DNA from: an uncultured bacterium
GTDB lineage: Bacteria > Armatimonadota > SYMT01
Direction of reading: 5' to 3'
DNA length: 64,000 bases
Assembly: GCA_964609085.1 (NCBI GenBank)
Contig: CAZSRZ010000012.1
Coordinates: forward strand, 2,292 to 66,291
Below the pieces are notes generated by a model. That model was not told the DNA's origin. It saw nothing but the letters and a program-made list of their open reading frames with translations, and did not search any database. The position numbers and the translations under genes are program-made. Below, one piece after another: positions 41,105-63,113 of the stretch. Within the stretch, counting starts at the first letter, position 1. The number at the start of each line of letters is the position of its first letter.

Positions 41105-41110
41105 TGAGCA

Positions 41111-41460
41111 TGGAGGCGCCGGGAGTTGAACCCGGGTCCGAAGGGACGCGAACGAGACTACTACGAGCGTATCCGCTGATTTAATCTTGCGCCTGGCCCC
41201 CCAGCGACAGGGTTCCGATCGGCGCCAGCCCGCTTGTTAGGCAGGGCGGTCCACAGGCACTACCGCCCGGCCTGGCCAGGATCGTTAACGCCCTACCCCG
41301 CGCCCCTGGCCGGGCACGGTTCGGACGGGCCGCTTAGTTAAGCAGCCAGCGCGTAACTGTTATGGTTCGCGTTTGTGTTTTTGCCGCTTTTTACGAGGCC
41401 AACGGCGCCTCGGCTCGCAATCTCGCCCGGCACTCTCCTCCGTCGACACCCATCGCCCCC
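41111..41460 (-). ncRNA. ssrA: tmRNA (transfer-messenger RNA, SsrA)
   Basis: The minus-strand 5' end 'GGGGGCGAUGGGUGUCGACGG' pairs with the 3' end '...GGGUUCAACUCCCGGCGCCUCCA' (T-arm GGUUCAACUCC, G3:U70 acceptor). An internal tag ORF reads '...GCG AAC CAU AAC AGU UAC GCG CUG GCU GCU UAA' = (A)NHNSYALAA-stop. Length is about 350 nt. Confidence 0.85.
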
Positions 41461-50591: not shown

Positions 50592-52496
50592 GTGCAGACT
50601 TCGAACACACTTGGTCGCTACCAGATCCTCCGCGAGCTGGCCCGCAGCAACGACATCGTCTACGAGGCCCGGGATCCATCAGGGCTTCGCGTCGCCCTCA
50701 AGGAACTGCAGGTGCCGGCCAATCTCGTGGGTCGCGCCCGCACCGAGAGGATCGCTCGGTTCACGCGGGAGGCACGGGCGGCCGCCAGCCTGAAGCATCC
50801 GAACATCGTCCATATCCATGACCATGGCGACGTGCAGGGTCGCTACTTCATTGCGATGGAGTTCCTGCAGGGTCAGTCACTGCGTGACGTGCTGCGACAG
50901 CGGGGCGCACTCCCGGCGAGCGACGCCATCAACATCGCCGCGAAGGTGGCGGAAGGGCTGGCTTATGCCCACAAGCACGGCGTCGTGCACCGGGACGTCA
51001 AGCCGGACAACGTGCACATGGAACCGGATGGGCGCGTCGTCATCACCGACTTCGGCATCGCCCGGCTCACCTTCGAACCCACCCTGACGGCGGAAGGCCA
51101 GGTGTTCGGCACTCCCAGCTATATGTCGCCCGAACAGGTGACGGGCAAGGGGATTGATCACCGCAGCGATGTCTTTTCTCTGGGCGTGATGCTTTACGAG
51201 ATGGTGGCAGGCCGGAAGCCGTTTAGCGGCGACAGCGTCATCACCATCACCTACAACATCATGAACATGGAGCCGTCTCCTCTCGCGAATGGACCGACCG
51301 GCCTGGACGCCGTCATCCGTCGCGCCATGGCCAAAGACCCGAATCGGCGGTACGCAAACTGCGCCGAGTTGATTGAGGACCTCCAGTCGATCCAGCAGGG
51401 GCGGCGCCCTGCGCATGCGGACAGGATGCCTCCAGCTCGAGTGGGCGGCGCCGCCCCCGCCCGCCCATCAGGAACGCAGGCCCGGCATCCCGCGCCCCCG
51501 GCACCCCGGCCGCAGCCTCGCCCGGCCCCGCGGGCAGCAGGGCCGCTGCCGCATCCTGCCCCGGGATATCCCGCGCCGGTTCGCCAGGGCGCTTCGCCGG
51601 GGGCGCCCGTGCGCGGTGCCCGCCCAGCCGCGCCACCCACACACCAGATTCCAGCGCCGGTGCCGGTCTACCACTCGTCCCCCCAACGGGGCGGGCTCGA
51701 TCTCCGGTGGTTGCTGGGCTGGCTCGGTCTGGCCGTACTCGTCGGGCTGATGATCATCGGGATTGTTTGGGTGAGTGTGACCGCCCTGGATCGCTTCCGT
51801 GTGGAGACCAGTGTGCGCGACGCCGAGAGAGCGCATACGATCGCGGCGGCGGACTTCCAGGCAGGGCGGTATGAGGAGGCGCTGCGGGGGTATCTCGCGG
51901 CGGAAAAAGGCCTCTCCGGCCCCCGCCTCCTGGTGGTGCAAAAGAATGCGGCCAACGCCGCCGTGGCGCTGGCTGATCGGGCGCTGGAACAGAAGGATGC
52001 GGCCCGCGCGGAGTCGTTCGCTCGCCAGGCCGTGCAGCAGAACCCGGACGAACCGGCCGCCCGGTTGTCGCTGGGCAGAGCGCTGGCGCTGCTGGGGCGC
52101 GTGGATGAGGCCCTGCAGGAGTTTGGACAGGTCGAGGGGGCGGCGGAGCGCGCCCGACGAACGGACACGCCGGCCGAGGCGGCCCTCCATCGAAAGACGG
52201 TCGAGGCCCTGCCGCTGTGGCGCGCGGCAACGACCTACGCGGACGGCGTGGCGCTGGCTGAGACGAACCCCCAGCTCGCCCGCCAGCGATTTCAAATGAC
52301 CGTGGATGCCGCGCCAGCCTCCGATTTCGCCAGAAACGCGCGAGATTACATCCTGCGGATCGACTCTGCCGCTCGGGCCGGCACGCCCCTCAGCCCGCCA
52401 TCCGATCCGCCAGGCGGGCAGCCTGGGGGCGTCGGCGGCTCGCCGGAACGGCCCCCTGGCTGGACGGATCCTGGGTTCAGGGCCAGTGATCCCTGA
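50592..52496 (+). CDS. Hanks-type Ser/Thr protein kinase with TM segment and C-terminal TPR region
   Basis: Kinase motifs are 'VALKEL', 'HRDVKPDNVHM', 'DFGIAR' and 'GTPSYMSPEQ'. A Pro-rich linker, a TM helix 'LGWLGLAVLVGLMIIGIVWV' and TPR-like repeats follow. The start codon is GTG. Confidence 0.85.
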   Translation: MQTSNTLGRYQILRELARSNDIVYEARDPSGLRVALKELQVPANLVGRARTERIARFTREARAAASLKHPNIVHIHDHGDVQGRYFIAMEFLQGQSLRDVLRQRGALPASDAINIAAKVAEGLAYAHKHGVVHRDVKPDNVHMEPDGRVVITDFGIARLTFEPTLTAEGQVFGTPSYMSPEQVTGKGIDHRSDVFSLGVMLYEMVAGRKPFSGDSVITITYNIMNMEPSPLANGPTGLDAVIRRAMAKDPNRRYANCAELIEDLQSIQQGRRPAHADRMPPARVGGAAPARPSGTQARHPAPPAPRPQPRPAPRAAGPLPHPAPGYPAPVRQGASPGAPVRGARPAAPPTHQIPAPVPVYHSSPQRGGLDLRWLLGWLGLAVLVGLMIIGIVWVSVTALDRFRVETSVRDAERAHTIAAADFQAGRYEEALRGYLAAEKGLSGPRLLVVQKNAANAAVALADRALEQKDAARAESFARQAVQQNPDEPAARLSLGRALALLGRVDEALQEFGQVEGAAERARRTDTPAEAALHRKTVEALPLWRAATTYADGVALAETNPQLARQRFQMTVDAAPASDFARNARDYILRIDSAARAGTPLSPPSDPPGGQPGGVGGSPERPPGWTDPGFRASDP

Positions 52497-56436: not shown

Positions 56437-57606
56437 ATGCGCTTTCACTCCGCGCTCACCGTCGCGGCCACCGCGGAAGATGCCGGTTTAGAACTCACCT
56501 CGGCGGCGCGCGACGCGTGGGGAGGAGCGGGTCCGATCGACCTCGCGTTCCTCTTTTTCACGGGACACCACGCCGACTCTGCGCCCGAGCTGGCCGGATC
56601 GCTGCGGGCAACCCTGGGAATCAAGCATCTCCTCGGCGTCAGTTGCGAGGGTGTCATCGGCGAGCGGACGGAGATCGAGCGCGTCCCGGCTGTGGCATTG
56701 CTCACCGCGCGGCTGCCCGGGGTGAATCTTCAACCCTTCGCCGTCGAGGGTCGCGAGTGGTCGGAGCTGCTTCTGGACGAAGAGCGACTGCAGCGGCGCC
56801 TCGGAACCGGGCCGGGGCACGCCGGTCAGATCCTGTTGTCGGACCCTTTCAGTACTCCGATCGACGAGATCCTGCCCGGACTCGATGTTGTTCTCGGGCG
56901 CCCCACGGTCGGCGGGATGGCGAGCGGCTCCCATCAACCGGGCGGCAACATACTGATCTGCAACGACCGTGTGCTCAACGCCGGGTCTATCGGGGTGGGC
57001 ATCGGCGGCGCACTCAGCCTCACAACGCTCGTCAGCCAGGGCTGTCGACCGATTGGTCGCCCGATGGTCGTCACGCGATCGGACCGCAACGTCATTCTTG
57101 AGCTGGGGCGACGCCCAGCGCTAGCTGCCGCGCAAGAGATGTTGCGCGCCCTCCCGCCGGAGGAAGCAGAGATGCTCACGTCCGGACTCCTGATCGGAGT
57201 CGTACTCGACGAATACAGGTCCGAATTCACTCGCGGCGACTTCCTGATACGACCGCTGATGGGCGGCGATCGCGAGGCCGGCTCCATCGTGATGGGCGAC
57301 CTCATCCGGTCCGGCCAGACCATTCAGTTTCATGTGCGGGACGCAAGCACGGCGACCGAAGACCTGCGCGAACTGCTGACGCCGCACCTCGCGGAGCCGC
57401 CGCCCGCGGGTGCCCTCATTTTCAGTTGCAACGGCAGGGGGAGCCGGCTTTTCGAGGAAGCTGGCCACGATCTGGGCGCGCTGCAATCAGCTTTCCCGGG
57501 CCTTCCGACAGCAGGGTTTTTCGCGATGGGGGAATTGGGGCCGATCGCCGGTCGAACGCATCTGCACGGGCACACCGCCAGCATGCTGCTCATCCACCCG
57601 GCCTGA
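56437..57606 (+). CDS. FIST-domain sensory protein (FIST_N + FIST_C)
   Basis: FIST-like blocks are 'DLAFLFFTGHHADSAPELAGSL...LLGVSCEGVIGE' and, C-terminally, 'GALIFSCNGRGSRLFEE...PTAGFFAMGELGP'. The ATG at 56437 has a 'gggag' RBS 6 nt upstream. The gene starts 14 bp after kbl. Confidence 0.7.
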   Translation: MRFHSALTVAATAEDAGLELTSAARDAWGGAGPIDLAFLFFTGHHADSAPELAGSLRATLGIKHLLGVSCEGVIGERTEIERVPAVALLTARLPGVNLQPFAVEGREWSELLLDEERLQRRLGTGPGHAGQILLSDPFSTPIDEILPGLDVVLGRPTVGGMASGSHQPGGNILICNDRVLNAGSIGVGIGGALSLTTLVSQGCRPIGRPMVVTRSDRNVILELGRRPALAAAQEMLRALPPEEAEMLTSGLLIGVVLDEYRSEFTRGDFLIRPLMGGDREAGSIVMGDLIRSGQTIQFHVRDASTATEDLRELLTPHLAEPPPAGALIFSCNGRGSRLFEEAGHDLGALQSAFPGLPTAGFFAMGELGPIAGRTHLHGHTASMLLIHPA

Positions 57607-57619
57607 TCGGGCAGGCCGG
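57598..57619 (+). terminator. 8-bp stem-loop overlapping FIST stop codon
   Basis: CCGGCCTG-ATCGGG-CAGGCCGG is read directly. No U-tract follows. Confidence 0.3.
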
Positions 57620-57645
57620 GATAGGATGTGTCGCAGCAGACCCCC

Positions 57646-58046
57646 CACGCTCCCTCACGGCTGCGGCTCAGCGGGGGTGCTCCCGACCTGGGTGCGCGGG
57701 CGTCCCGGCCCGCCTGGCCTCCACGATCCATGGACCCGTCGGGGCACGTCGGCGGTGAATCGCGAGTGGCCGAGGACTCCAGGCACCAGACGGAGGCCGA
57801 GTCCGCTGGCGGCAATGGCACCACGCTCCCTGACGGCCGCGGCTCAGCGGGGGTGCTCCCGACCTGGGTGCGCGGGCGTCCCGGCCCGCCTAGCATCCAC
57901 GATCCATGGACCCGTCGGGGCACGTCGTCGGTGAATCGCGGGTGGCCGAGGACACCAGGCCCCGGGCCCCAGGCCCCAGACGGAGGCCGAGTCCGCTGGC
58001 GGCAATGGCACCACGCTCCCTGACGTCCGCGGCTCAGCGGGAGTGG
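57646..58046. repeat. tandem direct repeat, about 2.2 copies of a 176-190 bp GC-rich unit
   Basis: The unit starting 'CACGCTCCCTGACGGCCGCGGCTCAGCGGGGGTGCTCCCGACCTGGGTGCGCGGGCGTCCCGGCCCGCC...' recurs at 57646, 57822 and 58012 with over 90% identity. The second copy carries a 14-bp insertion (CCCGGGCCCCAGGC). The period is not a multiple of 3. Confidence 0.85.
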
Positions 58047-58317
58047 CTGCGGCGTCCGCGCTGTGCCCGCGGACCAGTGTCTGCGTACAGCACCACAGCC
58101 GGCACGCAATCGCAAAAGAGGAGCCAGGTACTTTCTGAATGGCCGAGGAGTTTCTGGGGCGGATGTCGAATCAACTCCTGACGCCGCTCGGTGGCGGCGA
58201 GGGGAGCCACGATGCTCGGCAAACGCAGAGCGAAACCCGGTCCGCGCTCTCTTGACCGGTGGATGGTCGCCACCACCAGCCCCGGCATTTGGTCCGGCGT
58301 TCTCGATTCACGCGGCA

Positions 58318-59871
58318 ATGGCCAACGGTATGACCGTGAGTCACACCTATGACAGCGACAGCCGCGAACTGCTGCTGGAGAACCGGAAGAGCGATGGCAC
58401 GGGGATCGCCGTCTACACGGCGCAGTATGACAACGCTGGCAATCGGCTCAACGTCGTCGAGCTCGACGGCAGCCGGGTGACGTATGGCTACGACGAAGTA
58501 TCCCAGCTCACCAGCGAGGTGCGGTCGGGGACCTGGCCCTACGACATCCAGTATGAGTACGACGGCTGCATGAACCGGAAGCGGATGATCGAGAGCGGCG
58601 CCGTCACCAGCTACAGCCACAACGCGGCCAACGAGCTTCTCGTGGTCCAACCCTTCAACGCCTTCCCGACCAGCATGACCTGGGACGCCGACGGGAACCT
58701 GGAGACCGAAGTCACCGGGGCGAATCGGACCACGCGAAGCTGGGACTCCGAGAACATGATGGTCAGCGTCAGCAGCCCCGACGGCCTGGCCACCCACACC
58801 TACAGCCAGGGTCAGAACGGCTACCGCGTGCGCAAAGCAGACCCGGACGGAACGACGGTCTTCGTCTGGGATCTCGAGAACATGCTTCTCGAGGCAGACC
58901 TGGCCGGCGTGACACAGGCGAAGTACACCGACTTTCCGGGGTATTGGGGTGGCCTGGCCAGCCAGCGGATGAGCAGCGTCTCCGGTTGGTACTGTACGGA
59001 CGCGGACGGAAACGTGCGCTACCTGGTTGATGAACAGGGTCTCGCGGGCGGCCAGATCTGTCTCGCGTCGTTTGGGGTGCGGCTGGACGGCGCCGTCGGG
59101 CGGGAGCTACCCTGCGTCTTCCACGGCCTCACGGGGTACCGCACTGCGGGAGCAACCCTATTCGTTCGCGCGAGATCTCTGCAGCCCTCGGTCGGCCGAT
59201 TCTCGAGCCGTGACCCCTTCGGTACCTCTGATCTCTACGTGTATTGCGGTAATCGGCCTCTCCTGCTGGACGACCCATCTGGGCTAGTATCCAGGAAGGG
59301 GAAGCCGTCGGGTGTCGAGTGGACTGCCTTGCTTCCCATTCTTCCTTCTCCACTTAGGGAACTATGCCTTGGGGCAGCGACGTGTCAGTACCTGCAAGGA
59401 CTGACCGAGTACGGCAACTGGTGTGGAGCGGGGATCTCAGGTCCAGCCACCGGTCGTCCGAGCACCACCTGTGATTGTATCGATACGGGGTGCGCAAACC
59501 ACGACGCCTGTCTCCGGGGAATCGCGCCTGGCACTTCCTTGGCACGGCTAGCGTGCGACACGGCCCTCTGCCGCAAGGCTAAGTCGTGCCTCGGCGGGGG
59601 CTGCGATCGGCAGGTTGCGTCGCCGCCGTGTACACCGGTAACCTGCAGGCAATTTGCCTGGCGCATAATATTGAACTTCTGCCAGGGCGGAGCAGGTTCG
59701 AGCCCCCCGGCCACGTATCCCGTGCCCGCCGTCAACGGCAACCGTAACACGTCGATCGATGACATCCGCAACTGGTGCGTGTGGTATGGATGGCCGGGGA
59801 TATCGCTTTACCATCCTCCTTTTCCCAACCCTCTCGGTCCGCTACCAGGTTCAAGTTATTTCTGGAGGTGA
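58318..59871 (+). CDS. N-terminally truncated RHS/YD-repeat polymorphic toxin with C-terminal secreted-PLA2-like domain
   Basis: YD repeats are present ('YDSDSRELL', 'YTAQYDNAGNRL', 'YGYDEVSQL', 'YEYDGCMNRKR'). The RHS core ends with 'GYRTAGATLFVRARSLQPSVGRFSSRDPFG...LLLDDPSGL'. A 190-aa Cys-rich tail then carries 'YGNWCGAGISG' (PLA2 Ca-loop-like YGxxCGxG) and 'DCIDTGCANHDACL' (PLA2 catalytic CCxxHDxC-like). There is no PAAR or other N-terminal trafficking domain. Confidence 0.7.
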   Translation: MANGMTVSHTYDSDSRELLLENRKSDGTGIAVYTAQYDNAGNRLNVVELDGSRVTYGYDEVSQLTSEVRSGTWPYDIQYEYDGCMNRKRMIESGAVTSYSHNAANELLVVQPFNAFPTSMTWDADGNLETEVTGANRTTRSWDSENMMVSVSSPDGLATHTYSQGQNGYRVRKADPDGTTVFVWDLENMLLEADLAGVTQAKYTDFPGYWGGLASQRMSSVSGWYCTDADGNVRYLVDEQGLAGGQICLASFGVRLDGAVGRELPCVFHGLTGYRTAGATLFVRARSLQPSVGRFSSRDPFGTSDLYVYCGNRPLLLDDPSGLVSRKGKPSGVEWTALLPILPSPLRELCLGAATCQYLQGLTEYGNWCGAGISGPATGRPSTTCDCIDTGCANHDACLRGIAPGTSLARLACDTALCRKAKSCLGGGCDRQVASPPCTPVTCRQFAWRIILNFCQGGAGSSPPATYPVPAVNGNRNTSIDDIRNWCVWYGWPGISLYHPPFPNPLGPLPGSSYFWR

Positions 59872-59873
59872 CG

Positions 59874-60950
59874 ATGGCGAACACGCGAACCCGAAAGGGC
59901 CCGAATTGGCTCGATAAAGTGTTGTTGCCGGCGGTGACGGTTGGCATTCTCGCGTGCTGCATTCTCAGTTCCGGCTGTAGTGCCGTCAGCAACGACACAT
60001 TCCAGGACTCTGCGATCGACGTCTCCGCTGACGGCAACCGGATCTGCTTCGCCGCGGCAGGCGACGGCAGGAGAGACATCTACTGGCTCGACAGGCGGAC
60101 AGGTTTGGTCCAACTGGTCGCCAAAACCGCCCAATGGGAACGGGGACCTCGGTTCGTGCCGGGATCCAATATGCTGGTGTGCAGTGCGGGCGACGCGGGA
60201 GGTGAGTCGGCCCACATTGAGCAGCGCGATCTCGGCGGGACCGCCGGACCAGTAATGCTCACCGCAGACGAGGCGCAGATCGACGAGTGCCCAGCCGTGT
60301 CGCCGAACGGGAGACTGGTGGCCTTCGCGCGCGCGCCAAAGCTCGGACTGGGGCCTAACGGCTATCTACCCGGATCATGGGACGTCTACACTGTCAGCGT
60401 GAAAGGGGGTGCTCCCGTCCAACGCACCACGATTGGCTTTGGGCGGTTGGTCTCCTTGGCCTTCTCTACTGACGGTAGGTATGTCTATTTCAATGCTCAG
60501 CGACTGCGCGTCCCTGGCTTTCGCGTTTTCCGCCTGGACTTGGCTCGACCAGCGCAGCCGGTTGAACTCAAGATGCGGCTCCCCGTGTACGAGCCGATCC
60601 CGGGACCAGGCGCGAACAGCATACTGTACTGCTCAACGGCCAAGGCGAATCCACCTGGGGGGCCAAGTACGGGTACCGTGGAGCTATTCAGGATGGACGG
60701 TCTCGCAAAGAATCGGTGGGGCAATCCCTCGCAGCTCACGCACGGGGATCAACCCATTTGGAGTCCAGTGCTCGCTCGCTCTACGCAGACGGTTTACTTC
60801 GTTCGGCAGTCGCCTAGCAGTACCATGAGGCGCCGGATGGCGGAGATCCGTAGTTACTCGCTCACCAATGGCACCGAGTCAAAGGTGGCTGGCGAGCAAA
60901 TTTTTAGCGATCCCCTTGGCGGGTCGACTGCGCCCGGGCAGGTCCGTTGA
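59874..60950 (+). CDS. PD40/TolB-like beta-propeller lipoprotein (candidate immunity protein)
   Basis: The ATG lies 2 nt after the RHS stop, with a 'ggagg' RBS. The signal peptide and lipobox is 'VGILACCILSSGC'. Repeated 'SADGNRICF', 'SPNGRLVAF' and 'STDGRYVYF' blades match the PD40 pattern. Confidence 0.65.
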   Translation: MANTRTRKGPNWLDKVLLPAVTVGILACCILSSGCSAVSNDTFQDSAIDVSADGNRICFAAAGDGRRDIYWLDRRTGLVQLVAKTAQWERGPRFVPGSNMLVCSAGDAGGESAHIEQRDLGGTAGPVMLTADEAQIDECPAVSPNGRLVAFARAPKLGLGPNGYLPGSWDVYTVSVKGGAPVQRTTIGFGRLVSLAFSTDGRYVYFNAQRLRVPGFRVFRLDLARPAQPVELKMRLPVYEPIPGPGANSILYCSTAKANPPGGPSTGTVELFRMDGLAKNRWGNPSQLTHGDQPIWSPVLARSTQTVYFVRQSPSSTMRRRMAEIRSYSLTNGTESKVAGEQIFSDPLGGSTAPGQVR

Positions 60951-61645
60951 CTTCACGAAGCGTCGCCACCATGGGGAAGATCGATCGACCCGAAACTGTT
61001 CCGGACAGCCGAAAGCGCGATGGGACGGGGAGCGGACTCCACACGGCGAGTTACGATCAAGCGGCGAACCGCCTCAACCTGGTCGAGCTGGACGGCAGCC
61101 GGGTGACGTGTGGCTACGACGAGTCCTATCAGCTCACCAGCGAGGTGAGATCCGGCACCTGGCCGTATGACATTGCCTATCAGTATGACGGCGCCTCAAA
61201 CCGGCTGGTGAAGGTGAAGGACGGTCAGCGAACGACGAGCACCTACAACGCCGCGCAGGAGCTGACGGTCATCCAGCATCCCGACGGGACGCGCACCACT
61301 CTCACCTGGGATCCCAACCGCAACCTGGAGACGGAGACCCTTGGATCGGCGACTACCACCTACCAGTGGGATGCCGAGAACCAGATTCGGCAGATCACCG
61401 AGCCACCGAGTACCGTTAACACCTACCGTTACCGGGCCCATCACTGTCGCGGCATCCAGCAGAACGACACCAGCACCAAGTACCTGATCTGGGACTGGCA
61501 GAACTGCGCACTGGAGCTGACCGACGGCCTGGCAGTGGCCGCCGAGTACTCGGGATACCCGGGCGAGTGGGGCGGGCTGGCCAGCATGCGCCGCGGCGGT
61601 GCGTGTGGCTTGCTTCATCCGGACTACTCTGCAAAGAAACTGTGA
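60947..61645 (+). CDS. RHS/YD-repeat fragment (paralogue of 58.3-59.0 kb region, no RHS core or toxin; probable remnant)
   Basis: 'NRLNLVELDGSRVTCGYDESYQLTSEVRSGTWPYDIAYQYDG' is roughly half identical to the corresponding stretch of the upstream RHS gene. It ends just after the conserved 'YPGEWGGLAS' block, about 50 bp inside the point where GC content drops. It has a TTG start, or an ATG at 60971. Confidence 0.5.
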   Translation: MTSRSVATMGKIDRPETVPDSRKRDGTGSGLHTASYDQAANRLNLVELDGSRVTCGYDESYQLTSEVRSGTWPYDIAYQYDGASNRLVKVKDGQRTTSTYNAAQELTVIQHPDGTRTTLTWDPNRNLETETLGSATTTYQWDAENQIRQITEPPSTVNTYRYRAHHCRGIQQNDTSTKYLIWDWQNCALELTDGLAVAAEYSGYPGEWGGLASMRRGGACGLLHPDYSAKKL

Positions 61646-61944
61646 AACCACTGTTAGCACTTTTGGTGCTGCCAACTATGGGAATGGTGGCACTCAAGAT
61701 GATCGGGCTATTGGTGGGGATTGAAACCGGTATTGTGGGCTTCTTCGCAGTTGGTGTTGTTACGTTGTTATTGGCCCGCCGAACTGCACGGGCTGCTGTT
61801 TCGCAGCTGGAACACATGCGTGGTGGCTGGAACCAACCTGGAGACGAGACATTTGCCCTGAGATGTCTTACATGGGTTTTCTGGCTGGTGGGAACCATGT
61901 ATGTTTTATTTGGGCTGGTTGAGATTGTCGTGGCGCTGAAATGA
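61643..61944 (+). CDS. small 2-3 TM membrane protein (hypothetical)
   Basis: A GTG start overlaps the RHS-fragment stop. The translation includes 'LALLVLPTMGMVALKMIGLLVGIETGIVGFFAVGVVTLLLA' and a second helix 'WVFWLVGTMYVLFGLVEIVVAL'. Confidence 0.4.
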
Positions 61945-62157
61945 CGCTTCAGATTCGGTCGGGTCGGGCCGCAAAGCAATCGGTCGGCCGAGAGCGCACC
62001 ATCAGCCGCCGACACTTCACTCCCCCATCCGCTCCGCTAAACGATTGCTTTGTTGCCACCACGATAGCTCGATTTGGGGCTGGAGGTGTCGATCTCCGTG
62101 CGGATGTGCAGTGAATGTGGACGACAGGCAGTCCACGGGTTGACCCGATCAGCTTGT

Positions 62158-62178
62158 ATTCAGTATTGGCTACTGAAT
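62158..62178. promoter_or_regulatory. perfect 8-bp inverted repeat (candidate operator) upstream of small ORF
   Basis: ATTCAGTA-TTGGC-TACTGAAT lies 60 bp upstream of the 62240 ORF. TTGACC at 62141 is a possible -35 element. Confidence 0.3.
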
Positions 62179-62239
62179 CCGCCTCGGTTCGAGTCTGGCG
62201 GCGCCAGGGCAATGCAGTGGCTAGTTTGGAGCTCTAGAA

Positions 62240-62449
62240 ATGCCTAGATGGATTGACTATCTGGCGCTGATTGGGATCAGTGTCCTCGGATTGGGTGCGG
62301 CCGGATGCGCTTTGGTGTTCGTTCAGTTGGCAGAAAGGGGCAGTATGGCGGAAGCACGCCCCTGGGTGTGGGGTGAAGTCGGTCTGTCTCTGGTCTGCGG
62401 TGGGATTCTGGTCTGGTATTTCAAAAAAACTGTTAGACAGATGCGCTGA
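62240..62449 (+). CDS. small 2-TM membrane protein (hypothetical)
   Basis: The translation is 'MPRWIDYLALIGISVLGLGAAGCALVFVQLAERG...WVWGEVGLSLVCGGILVWYFKK', 69 aa, lying in the low-GC island. Confidence 0.4.
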   Translation: MPRWIDYLALIGISVLGLGAAGCALVFVQLAERGSMAEARPWVWGEVGLSLVCGGILVWYFKKTVRQMR

Positions 62450-62582
62450 TCTCTAAGAACAGGTGTGAACAACTGAACCACAAACAGGCGTTGAAAACGG
62501 ATCCATCCCTGGGGCATCTCTCAGGCGATCGCATATCTCGAGTTGGACCAGAGGCTATTCTGCCACTGAAGGATTGGATTTA

Positions 62583-63113
62583 ATGAGCGATACGGGCTTA
62601 CTGACGAGAATTGGGCGATTAGGAACGGTAGTCTTTGGTGTGGGGTGGGTTGGCGTAACGGTGGCCGCAGTATTATCTACCCCGGTAATCTTGAGATCTG
62701 GTGCAGCCGGGCTTTTCGATATGGCGGTCCTGATTCTTACTGCGGTTGGCACTGGCCGACTGACGAGAATGGCCAGTCTTCCACACGCAAAAGCAGCTCT
62801 GACAGCCTCCTGGGCTGGACCGCTGATCTTGCTTGTGGAAACTGTGCTGGTCTCTGATATGTCACCAGGATCTACCGGACTGAGAGTTGGCATTATCCAA
62901 GGTTTACTGGAAGCCGCTTTCTTCTGCTGGCTAGTGCGCGCCTACGGGGCGTTAACCTGGGTTGCTCTGGGCCCGATTGGCTCCGACCGCGGATCGAGGG
63001 TTTTCCGGTTTGCTGCGGACATGCCGGGCCGTCTCTGGTGGTTGCTACCGATGTTCTTCCTTCTGAAGGGAGTCCTGGTTTTCTGGCTTGTTAGCCGTAG
63101 TGGAAGCGGTTAG
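62583..63113 (+). CDS. multi-TM membrane protein (hypothetical; candidate orphan immunity protein)
   Basis: The ATG at 62583 follows an 'aagga' RBS. Four or five hydrophobic helices are present ('GTVVFGVGWVGVTVAAVL', 'MAVLILTAVGTG', 'WAGPLILLVETVLV', 'LLPMFFLLKGVLVFWLV'). It lies in the low-GC island. Confidence 0.45.
   Translation: MSDTGLLTRIGRLGTVVFGVGWVGVTVAAVLSTPVILRSGAAGLFDMAVLILTAVGTGRLTRMASLPHAKAALTASWAGPLILLVETVLVSDMSPGSTGLRVGIIQGLLEAAFFCWLVRAYGALTWVALGPIGSDRGSRVFRFAADMPGRLWWLLPMFFLLKGVLVFWLVSRSGSG

What the first reader, a model, noticed from the sequence alone, without database searches (positions are those of the whole stretch)
57646..58046. Unexplained 176-190 bp GC-rich tandem repeat (2.2 copies) between FIST gene terminator hairpin and the rhs start
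Three consecutive copies, over 90% identical, of a unit beginning CACGCTCCCTGACGGCCGCGGCTCAGCGGG are directly visible at 57646, 57822 and 58012. The unit is far too long and spacer-less for CRISPR, the period is not divisible by 3 so it is not a protein repeat, and it sits exactly at the boundary of the putatively acquired rhs region. The rhs in-frame ORF can be extended back into the repeat but gives Arg-rich nonsense. It could be a duplicated promoter or 5'UTR, a structured small-RNA array, or a recombination or integration scar.
Basis: seen in the sequence. Interest (0 to 1): 0.55.

Follow-up and report, generated by a model that had tools for sequence, protein, structure and literature searches.

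The report
Private non-coding tandem duplication upstream of rhs
A 176-190 bp GC-rich stretch of non-coding DNA between a sensor gene and a short Rhs toxin gene has been duplicated head to tail; it is real, but it shows no sign of coding, of RNA structure or of occurring anywhere else, so it is most likely an ordinary one-off bacterial minisatellite.

Summary
The repeat is real. TRF finds 57645-58045, period 176, 2.2 copies, score 619. It is the only large tandem repeat in the 64-kb window. The layout is A-B-A-B'-A'', with A = 35 nt and B = 141 or 155 nt. The two full copies differ by 7 substitutions and a 14-nt insertion made by a nested CCAGGCC microsatellite. The array starts 8 nt after a strong hairpin at the FIST gene's 3' end and ends 272 nt before the rhs ATG (58318).

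The array is non-coding in all six frames by GC3 and by codon log-odds. It folds no better than shuffled sequence on either strand, shows no compensatory changes and has no Rfam match. No promoter or terminator consensus was found.

The unit was not found elsewhere. It is absent from the rest of the window, from 185,579 species genomes, from JGI metagenomes, and from the viral, plasmid and phage collections. Translated searches of billions of proteins also found nothing. The lineage is poorly sampled (nearest FIST homologue 58% identical, nearest rhs 46%), so no comparative test is possible.

Best reading (0.55): a private intergenic minisatellite made by slippage or unequal recombination, with no dedicated product. 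A cis-regulatory role for the rhs cassette cannot be excluded (about 0.2). Interest is low.

The parts
56437..57606 (+). Upstream flanking gene: FIST-domain sensor protein (389 aa).
   Evidence: Pfam FIST (3.7e-33) and FIST_C (9.4e-24). The exact protein, P0001, is in an NCBI record on a 66,992-nt contig. Codon log-odds +0.26.
57585..57637 (+). Strong GC-rich stem-loop spanning the FIST stop codon. It is a possible U-tract-less terminator or 3'-end stabiliser, and it ends 8 nt before the array.
   Evidence: MFE -34.6 kcal/mol, z = -3.73, 1 of 200 shuffles as stable. No T-run, so the terminator scan did not call it.
57645..57820 (.). Tandem repeat copy 1 (176 nt; A1 = 57645-57679, B1 = 57680-57820).
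   Evidence: TRF, alignment, nhmmer E = 1.4e-56.
57821..58010 (.). Tandem repeat copy 2 (190 nt; A2 = 57821-57855, B2 = 57856-58010). It differs from copy 1 by 7 substitutions and a 14-nt insertion.
   Evidence: TRF, alignment, nhmmer E = 3.6e-61.
57955..57979 (.). Nested 7-nt microsatellite (CCAGGCC, 3.6 copies) inside copy 2. It accounts for the 14-nt length difference between the copies and shows local slippage.
   Evidence: TRF row 3. The gap position in the pairwise alignment matches.
58011..58045 (.). Partial copy 3 (A'' only, 35 nt; 2 differences from A2, 4 from A1). Homology to the unit stops abruptly at 58045.
   Evidence: Alignment, nhmmer E = 1.4e-4 for model positions 1-35, the repeat finder D3.
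58046..58190 (.). Unique non-coding spacer between the array and the small ORF.
   Evidence: No coding signal in any frame. No repeat, Rfam or consensus hits.
58191..58352 (+). Small ORF (53 aa) that overlaps the rhs start in another frame. Its C-terminal 32 aa resemble a 52-aa ORF upstream of the related short rhs in L005. It is probably part of the rhs cassette, not of the repeat.
   Evidence: BLOSUM62 local score 56 against shuffles with mean 20.5, sd 3.8, max 41 (n = 2000). No Pfam hit. Codon log-odds -0.05, which is ambiguous.
58318..59871 (+). Downstream flanking gene: short Rhs protein (517 aa, P0121) with YD repeats, an Rhs-associated core and a Cys-rich C-terminal domain.
   Evidence: Pfam RHS_repeat. 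NCBIfam Rhs_assc_core at aa 278-323. This exact 517-aa product is in the source record. Coding periodicity begins at about 58320.

Best explanation
The feature is a private, non-coding minisatellite. A roughly 176-nt segment of the FIST-rhs intergenic leader was duplicated head to tail by replication slippage or unequal recombination between short direct repeats.

The present layout is A-B-A-B'-A'' (A = 35 nt, B = 141 or 155 nt). This is what one unequal exchange between the two A segments of an ancestral A-B-A would give. Later point substitutions and slippage of an internal CCAGGCC 7-mer then made the copies diverge.

The array makes no protein and no specially structured RNA of its own. Its only likely effect is passive. 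It lengthens the GC-rich leader, by about one unit relative to a single-copy ancestor. That leader separates the FIST 3' hairpin from the small ORF and short rhs toxin cassette.

Shown here: the repeat anatomy, the non-coding nature, the lack of excess structure, and the absence from every collection searched. Inferred: the slippage or recombination origin, and the lack of a dedicated function.
For: 1. Anatomy: perfectly head-to-tail copies with a partial terminal copy, and a nested 7-mer expansion that accounts for the only indel. Both are signatures of slippage-type processes.
2. Non-coding: no GC3 periodicity between 57607 and 58318. Codon log-odds are at or below 0 in all six frames across the array, against +0.21 to +0.40 for flanking genes. 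Periods 176 and 190 are not multiples of 3. No Pfam hit for the ORFs that cross it. No real homologue of the minus-strand reading among 1.84 billion representatives; the only hits are antisense-of-FIST ORFs and one repeat-inflated chance match. No hit for the three plus-strand readings among 5.8 billion clusters.
3. No RNA signal: fold z-scores of +1.35, +0.99, +0.83 and +0.46. The minimum-energy structures of the two copies differ. There are 0 compensatory pairs. There is no Rfam match at gathering score or at E <= 10.
4. Private: no other copy in the window by seed search, blastn with word size 7, or nhmmer. Zero exact matches of conserved 22- to 30-mers in genome contigs, metagenome contigs (two patterns) and viral contigs (three patterns). 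No blastn match in plasmids or phages. Nothing similar upstream of the closest rhs relatives, and the leader is not shared with the second rhs fragment in the window.
5. No consensus promoter or terminator inside it.
Against: 1. The copies are 4% diverged, and a third partial copy carries further changes. Tandem duplications are usually lost quickly by recombination (my own knowledge), so persistence long enough to diverge could mean that both copies are maintained by selection. Alternatively, the contig consensus may mix strain variants.
2. GC of 0.75 is unusually high for non-coding DNA in a 65.6% GC genome. Simple neutral intergenic DNA does not explain this.
3. The position directly upstream of a toxin cassette fits a regulatory leader.
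4. Absence elsewhere is weakly informative. Only 64 kb of this genome could be searched, and no genome closer than 58% FIST identity exists in the collections.
Confidence: 0.55

Rival explanations
1. Cis-regulatory leader. The unit carries a promoter, an operator or a 5'-UTR element for the small ORF and rhs toxin cassette. Duplication, and possibly copy-number variation between cells or strains, tunes expression of the cassette or insulates it from FIST read-through.
For: It lies directly upstream of and co-oriented with the cassette, after a strong FIST 3' hairpin. It is non-coding. The copies have persisted long enough to diverge by 4%. The related short rhs in L005 also has a long gene-free leader of 1.3 kb before a homologous small ORF.
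Against: No sigma-70-like promoter was found in 57300-58500. There is no sequence similarity between this leader and the L005 leader. The second rhs fragment in the window lacks the unit. No conserved palindrome or operator-like motif stands out. 145 nt of unique DNA still separate the array from the small ORF.
Confidence: 0.2
2. Decayed remnant of foreign or formerly coding DNA that arrived with the rhs island, for example the eroded upstream part of a larger rhs locus or of an accessory gene from a higher-GC donor. The duplication would be incidental.
For: GC is 9 points above the genome mean. The location is the core-genome/rhs junction. In the relative L005 the short rhs follows a 1058-aa YD-repeat ORF and a 1.3-kb gene-free gap. 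So such cassettes can sit behind eroded rhs sequence.
Against: tblastn of Rhs relatives and of the L005 upstream YD protein against the leader gives only noise over the array. There is no residual codon periodicity. No translated homologue exists in any frame. No plasmid or phage DNA matches.
Confidence: 0.1
3. Array of small structured RNAs, or another RNA element, with one per unit.
For: It is GC-rich and non-coding, and the 176-nt unit is in the size range of bacterial sRNAs. MFE values are large in absolute terms (-83 to -98 kcal/mol).
Against: Those energies are no better than dinucleotide shuffles (z = +0.5 to +1.4; 132 to 182 of 200 shuffles fold at least as well). The predicted structures differ between the copies. 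There are no compensatory changes and no Rfam hit. No promoter or terminator is present per unit.
Confidence: 0.05
4. Assembly artefact. The duplication was created by the metagenome assembler from strain variants of a single-copy region.
For: The source is a metagenome-type NCBI contig with no named relatives. The differences between the copies could be strain polymorphisms.
Against: The B-to-A-to-B junction sequence can only be assembled if reads contain it (inference). The longest exact repeat inside the array is 53 nt, so at k >= 55 every k-mer in the array is unique and the path is unambiguous. The two junctions have different flanking variants.
Confidence: 0.05

Closest known systems
Bacterial intergenic minisatellites / VNTR loci (e.g. 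the MIRU and ETR loci of Mycobacterium tuberculosis used for MLVA typing; from my own knowledge)
   Same: Head-to-tail copies of a unit of tens to more than 100 nt in non-coding DNA between co-oriented genes. A partial terminal copy is present, the copies are slightly diverged, and slippage or unequal recombination is the generating process.
   Different: MIRU-type units (about 46-101 nt) recur at tens of loci per genome and often carry small in-frame ORFs. This unit is longer (176-190 nt) and has only 2.2 copies. It has been seen at one locus only, and copy-number polymorphism could not be examined.
Minisatellite inside a MITE of Porphyromonas gingivalis (PMC4596501; title and abstract only)
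   Same: A minisatellite located in intergenic DNA of a bacterium.
   Different: That one is embedded in a mobile element with inverted ends and many genomic copies. Here no terminal inverted repeats were found and no second copy was found.
Dispersed intergenic repeat families (REP/BIME, ERIC, BOX, Correia and similar; from my own knowledge)
   Same: Non-coding, intergenic, about 100-200 nt, often GC-rich or able to form structure.
   Different: Those families are interspersed rather than tandem. They are typically palindromic or have inverted ends, and they occur tens to hundreds of times per genome. None of this is seen here, within the limits of a 64-kb sample.
Orphan rhs toxin/immunity cassettes downstream of or apart from a full-length rhs gene (from my own knowledge of Enterobacteriaceae Rhs loci)
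   Same: This applies to the context only. The downstream gene is a short Rhs (517 aa) with YD repeats, an Rhs-associated core and a variable C-terminal domain. It is followed by a candidate immunity gene and a second rhs fragment that shares 74% identity over 223 nt.
   Different: No tandem GC-rich leader repeat is part of the described architecture. No full-length rhs lies in the window.

Membership tests
Bacterial minisatellite / VNTR | Head-to-tail (spacer-less) copies of one unit | tested here: met
   TRF period 176, 2.2 copies, score 619. The junctions abut exactly.
Bacterial minisatellite / VNTR | Unit of roughly 10 to a few hundred nt, in non-coding DNA or in frame within a gene | tested here: met
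   Unit of 176 or 190 nt. Non-coding by GC3 and codon log-odds in six frames.
Bacterial minisatellite / VNTR | Copy number varies between strains | not testable with these tools
   No second genome of this lineage exists in any collection searched, and no reads are available.
Dispersed intergenic repeat / MITE (REP, ERIC, MIRU-like, Correia) | Multiple copies at unlinked loci in the same genome | tested here: inconclusive
   No further copy in the 64-kb window. The rest of the genome is not available. A family of 20-150 copies in a genome of a few Mb would give only about 0.3-2 copies in 64 kb.
Dispersed intergenic repeat / MITE (REP, ERIC, MIRU-like, Correia) | Terminal inverted repeats or an overall palindromic unit | tested here: not met
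   Only short inverted matches of 72-92% complementarity, with none at the unit ends. No excess fold stability.
CRISPR array | Short repeats (about 23-50 nt) separated by unique spacers of similar length | tested here: not met
   The copies are 176-190 nt and contiguous. The 141-nt 'B' segments between the 35-nt 'A' segments are themselves 96% identical.
Structured non-coding RNA | Fold more stable than composition-matched shuffles | tested here: not met
   z = +1.35, +0.99, +0.83 and +0.46 for both copies on both strands.
Structured non-coding RNA | Covariation supporting a conserved structure | tested here: inconclusive
   0 compensatory pairs of 57 and 60 predicted pairs. Only two sequences with 7 substitutions exist, so there is no statistical power, and no homologues were found.
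Structured non-coding RNA | Match to a described RNA family | tested here: not met
   No Rfam hit at gathering score. Only one spurious hit, at E = 0.69, outside the array at E <= 10.
Protein-coding tandem repeat | Period divisible by 3, coding codon usage, and homologous proteins | tested here: not met
   Periods 176 and 190. Log-odds of -0.11 to -0.30 per codon for the ORFs that cross the array. No homologues.
Genomic-island att-site duplication | The same short direct repeat at both ends of the inserted region | tested here: not met
   No part of 57607-58318 recurs near the far end of the rhs region (about 61.6-63.2 kb) or anywhere else in the window. No tRNA gene is adjacent.

The most novel reading that the evidence does not exclude
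The array is a copy-number-variable leader that works as a heritable dial for an orphan Rhs toxin cassette. Gain or loss of 176-nt units by recombination would change transcription into the small ORF and rhs from the FIST side, or from a promoter inside each unit. That would be a contingency locus built from a long minisatellite rather than from the usual 1-9-nt repeats. A weaker variant of this reading is that each unit yields a small RNA acting on the toxin or immunity mRNAs.
Probability: 0.07. Interest if true: 0.55.

Novelty: new member of a known kind. Interest (0 to 1): 0.17.

Why it matters
As it stands it matters little. It is one more intergenic tandem duplication, in a poorly sampled high-GC lineage, with a unit sequence not seen elsewhere.

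It has two practical uses. First, it would serve as a strain-typing (VNTR) marker if more genomes of this lineage appear. Second, it is a caution for annotation. The 75% GC array is stop-free over long stretches in several frames, with ORFs of up to 261 aa. It could therefore be miscalled as genes, or as an N-terminal extension of the rhs gene.

It would become interesting only if copy number were shown to control expression of the adjacent Rhs toxin cassette.

Tried and rejected
1. Looking up the source contig and its neighbours by exact protein (FIST). The protein is in the cluster table, but no contig could be returned.
2. Synteny with the nearest FIST homologues (L001, L002). Their gene neighbourhoods are different and they have no rhs, so there is nothing to compare.
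3. Exact-pattern scans of genome, metagenome and viral collections with three different conserved parts of the unit. All returned 0 hits. These scans need exact 22- to 30-mers, so copies diverged by more than about 5-10% could be missed.
4. blastn 'distant' searches against plasmids and phages. No match.
5. Translated searches, to catch copies miscalled as ORFs elsewhere. The minus-strand search gave only antisense-of-FIST hits, plus P0123. P0123 is a 3047-aa adhesin-like protein whose E-value of 2.7e-14 comes from 17 identical repeats each matching 14 of 31 residues, so I rejected it as chance. The plus-strand search gave nothing.
6. The idea that the leader is an eroded upstream rhs portion. 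tblastn with six Rhs relatives and the L005 YD protein gave only noise over the array.
7. The idea that the second rhs fragment (60947-61645) has the same leader. Homology starts only inside the coding region, at about 58350.
8. The idea that the other GC peak (about 51.3-51.7 kb) is a related element. It is the Pro/Ala/Arg-rich linker of a 634-aa kinase-like ORF and does not align to the unit.
9. A literature search for a named class of long intergenic bacterial tandem repeats. It returned mostly eukaryotic minisatellite papers, and only the P. gingivalis MITE-minisatellite paper was loosely relevant.
10. Candidate small ORFs in the unique spacer: a 38-aa ORF at 58140-58256 and a 94-aa minus-strand ORF at 58034-58318. 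Neither has coding-like codon usage (-0.51 and +0.01) and neither has a Pfam hit.

Full report
**Observation**

The sequence at 57645-58045 is a genuine tandem repeat. Tandem Repeats Finder reports period 176, 2.2 copies, 89% matches, 6% indels and score 619.

- Copy 1 is 57645-57820 (176 nt).
- Copy 2 is 57821-58010 (190 nt).
- A third copy, 58011-58045, is only 35 nt long. After it, similarity to the unit stops abruptly.

The two full copies differ by 7 substitutions (96% identity) and one 14-nt insertion in copy 2. The insertion falls inside a nested 7-nt microsatellite, CCAGGCC, with 3.6 copies at 57955-57979.

The layout can be written A-B-A-B'-A'', with A = 35 nt and B = 141 or 155 nt. 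It is the only substantial tandem repeat in the 64-kb window.

**Setting**

- Upstream is a FIST/FIST_C sensor gene at 56437-57606 (+).
- Its stop codon lies inside a strong stem-loop at 57585-57637: -34.6 kcal/mol, z = -3.7, 1 of 200 shuffles as stable. The stem-loop has no T-run and ends 8 nt before the array.
- Downstream, coding periodicity resumes only at about 58320.
- The source record annotates a 517-aa Rhs protein from the ATG at 58318 (P0121). It has YD repeats and an Rhs-associated core at residues 278-323.
- The intergenic leader is therefore 711 nt (57607-58317), and the array fills 401 nt of it.
- The last part of the leader holds a 53-aa ORF at 58191-58352, in a different frame from rhs. 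Its C-terminal 32 residues align with a 52-aa ORF that lies upstream of the related short rhs in locus L005. The alignment score is 56, against shuffles with mean 20.5, sd 3.8 and max 41. That ORF seems to belong to the rhs cassette.
- The anonymous non-coding stretch is thus 57607-58190.

**Is it coding?**

No.

- GC at the three codon positions is flat across the array, at 0.68-0.80. The flanking genes show about 0.72/0.48/0.78 for FIST and up to 0.96 GC3 for rhs.
- I trained a codon log-odds model on 22 long coding-like ORFs of the window (12,598 codons).
  - FIST, the aminotransferase and rhs score +0.26, +0.40 and +0.21 per codon.
  - The ORFs that cross the array score -0.11 to -0.30.
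  - No positive score appears in any of six frames in sliding windows over the array.
- The in-frame upstream extension of rhs (58063-58317) scores -0.30.
- Periods of 176 and 190 shift the frame from copy to copy.
- Pfam finds nothing in the two longest ORFs that cross the array.

**Is it a structured RNA?**

Nothing supports it.

- Each full copy was folded on each strand. None is more stable than dinucleotide shuffles: z = +1.35, +0.99, +0.83 and +0.46.
- The minimum-energy structures of the two copies differ.
- RNAalifold on the two copies finds 0 compensatory pairs among 57 (+) and 60 (-) predicted pairs. With two sequences and seven substitutions this test has no power.
- Rfam gives no match at gathering scores.
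- At E <= 10 Rfam gives only one spurious hit, outside the array.
- No sigma-70-like promoter and no intrinsic terminator is predicted in 57300-58500.

**Distribution**

The unit was not found anywhere else.

- *Within the window:* seed-based repeat finding, blastn with 7-nt words and an nhmmer profile of the two copies recover only the three tandem members.
- *Exact scans with conserved parts of the unit:*
  - A 30-mer with three wildcards gave 0 matches in the 185,579-species genome collection.
  - The 30-mer and a 22-mer both gave 0 matches in JGI metagenomes.
  - Those two plus a 26-mer gave 0 matches in IMG/VR viral contigs.
- *blastn:* the whole leader has no match in plasmids or phages.
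- *Translated searches:* stop-free GC-rich DNA is often miscalled as ORFs, so I also searched translations.
  - The minus-strand reading of the whole array was searched against 1.84 billion representative proteins. The hits were antisense-of-FIST ORFs (query residues 162-261, outside the array) and one artefact. The artefact is P0123, whose score comes from 17 identical repeats that each match 14 of 31 residues.
  - The three plus-strand readings, searched against 5.8 billion clusters, gave nothing, not even a self-hit.

**Limits of the distribution result**

- The source is an NCBI contig of 66,992 nt from a lineage with no close relative in the collections.
  - The best non-self FIST homologue is 58% identical.
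  - The named homologues, at about 49-55% identity, come from Armatimonadota and Tepidisphaeraceae MAGs.
  - The best rhs relatives are 40-46% identical.
- The nearest FIST loci are not syntenic.
- The one rhs relative with upstream DNA (L005) has neither the unit nor a comparable repeat.
- 'Private' therefore means 'not seen in 64 kb of this genome, nor in any other sampled genome'. Dispersed copies on other contigs of the same genome cannot be excluded.

**Is it an assembly artefact?**

Probably not.

- The longest exact repeat within the array is 53 nt. With k >= 55 every k-mer in it is unique.
- The B-to-A-to-B junction can only be assembled if reads contain it (inference).
- The two junctions carry different flanking variants.
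- Read mapping would settle the question.

**Explanation**

The simplest account that fits everything is a one-off intergenic minisatellite.

An unequal exchange or slippage between short direct repeats (A-B-A giving A-B-A-B-A) duplicated part of the leader. Point changes and slippage of the internal 7-mer followed. The array has no product of its own. I give this 0.55.

Three things keep it from being higher.

- The copies are diverged by 4%, and there is a further-diverged partial copy. The duplication has therefore persisted, although tandem duplications are normally lost by recombination (my own knowledge).
- The array's GC is 0.75, in the top 0.3% of 400-nt windows. The only higher peak is the coding Pro/Ala-rich linker of a kinase-like ORF at about 51.3 kb. 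This is odd for non-coding DNA.
- The array sits directly upstream of a toxin cassette.

These points feed the main rivals.

| Rival | Confidence |
|---|---|
| Duplicated cis-regulatory leader | 0.2 |
| Eroded foreign or formerly coding DNA that came with the rhs island | 0.1 |
| sRNA array | 0.05 |
| Assembly artefact | 0.05 |

**Comparison with known kinds**

- It works like, and meets the testable criteria of, a bacterial minisatellite/VNTR: spacer-less tandem copies, a unit in the right size range, and a non-coding location. Copy-number polymorphism, the remaining criterion, cannot be tested.
- It fails the criteria for CRISPR, because there are no spacers.
- It fails the criteria for MITE/REP-like elements, because there are no inverted ends. 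Dispersion across the genome is untestable.
- It fails the criteria for protein repeats and for island att duplications.
- It has no support as a structured RNA.

**Verdict**

This is a real feature of ordinary kind: a new member, with a novel unit sequence, of the known class of bacterial intergenic tandem duplications. Interest is 0.17.

The most novel reading not excluded is a long-unit contingency locus that dials Rhs toxin expression. I give it a probability of about 0.07. It would deserve an interest of about 0.55 if true.

Noticed in passing
window 58191-58352 (+); L005 9729-9887 (+): A 53-aa ORF overlaps the rhs start codon in another frame. Its last 32 residues (SLDRWMVATTSPGIWSGVLDSRGNGQRYDRES) align significantly with a 52-aa ORF 113 nt upstream of the related short rhs in GCA_964519955.1 (score 56, against a shuffle maximum of 41). 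There is no DNA-level similarity and no Pfam hit. It may be a conserved small gene, or a leader peptide, of short-Rhs cassettes. The last 11 residues in the window are just the off-frame reading of MANGMTVSH.
   Followed up: partly
window 58318-59871 (+), C-terminal ~190 aa (59290-59868): After the Rhs-associated core (aa 278-323), the short Rhs protein ends in a Cys-rich domain with phospholipase-A2-like motifs (YGNWCGAG, CANHDAC). Pfam Phospholip_A2_2 matches only below threshold (E = 0.11, 13 bits against a cut-off of 22). It is a possible PLA2-type Rhs toxin domain.
   Followed up: partly
window 59775-60950 (+), 60947-61645 (+), 61600-63000: The region downstream of the rhs gene looks like a stacked toxin island. 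It holds a PD40/TolB-like beta-propeller ORF with a weak match to a 'putative T6SS immunity periplasmic lipoprotein' model. Next comes a second 232-aa rhs fragment that shares 74% identity over 223 nt with the first (58356-58578 against 60982-61204). A stretch of lower GC (0.51-0.58) follows, with ORFs that lack family hits. No full-length rhs gene is in the window.
   Followed up: partly
L005 5223-12295 (GCA_964519955.1, CAZFLM010000039.1): In the nearest rhs relative that has flanking DNA, four features lie in a row: a 1058-aa ORF full of 63-nt (21-aa) YD-type DNA repeats, a 1.3-kb gene-free gap, the small ORF, and a 764-aa short Rhs. This is either a split or eroded large rhs gene, or a main-rhs-plus-orphan arrangement.
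   Followed up: no
window 57585-57637 (+): A very stable GC-rich stem-loop encloses the FIST stop codon (-34.6 kcal/mol, z = -3.7). It has no U-tract, so it may be a U-tract-less terminator of the type common in high-GC bacteria.
   Followed up: partly
window 41108-41460 (-): A tmRNA gene (Rfam 152.8 bits) with the tag peptide ANHNSYALAA. It is the only RNA gene detected in the window and is not adjacent to the rhs region.
   Followed up: no
window 50592-52496 (+), peak at ~51300-51700: The highest-GC segment of the window (up to 0.84 over 176 nt) is the Pro/Ala/Arg-rich low-complexity linker of a 634-aa ORF. By eye, the N-terminus of that ORF looks like a Ser/Thr protein kinase (HRDVKPDN, DFG motifs). 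It is unrelated to the tandem repeat.
   Followed up: partly
window 57330-58115 (-) and antisense of FIST 3' end: A 261-aa stop-free minus-strand ORF spans the whole array and the FIST 3' end. Its FIST-antisense part matches a dozen database 'proteins' at E = 1e-4 to 1e-7. This shows that antisense-of-FIST ORFs are repeatedly miscalled as genes in public high-GC assemblies.
   Followed up: partly
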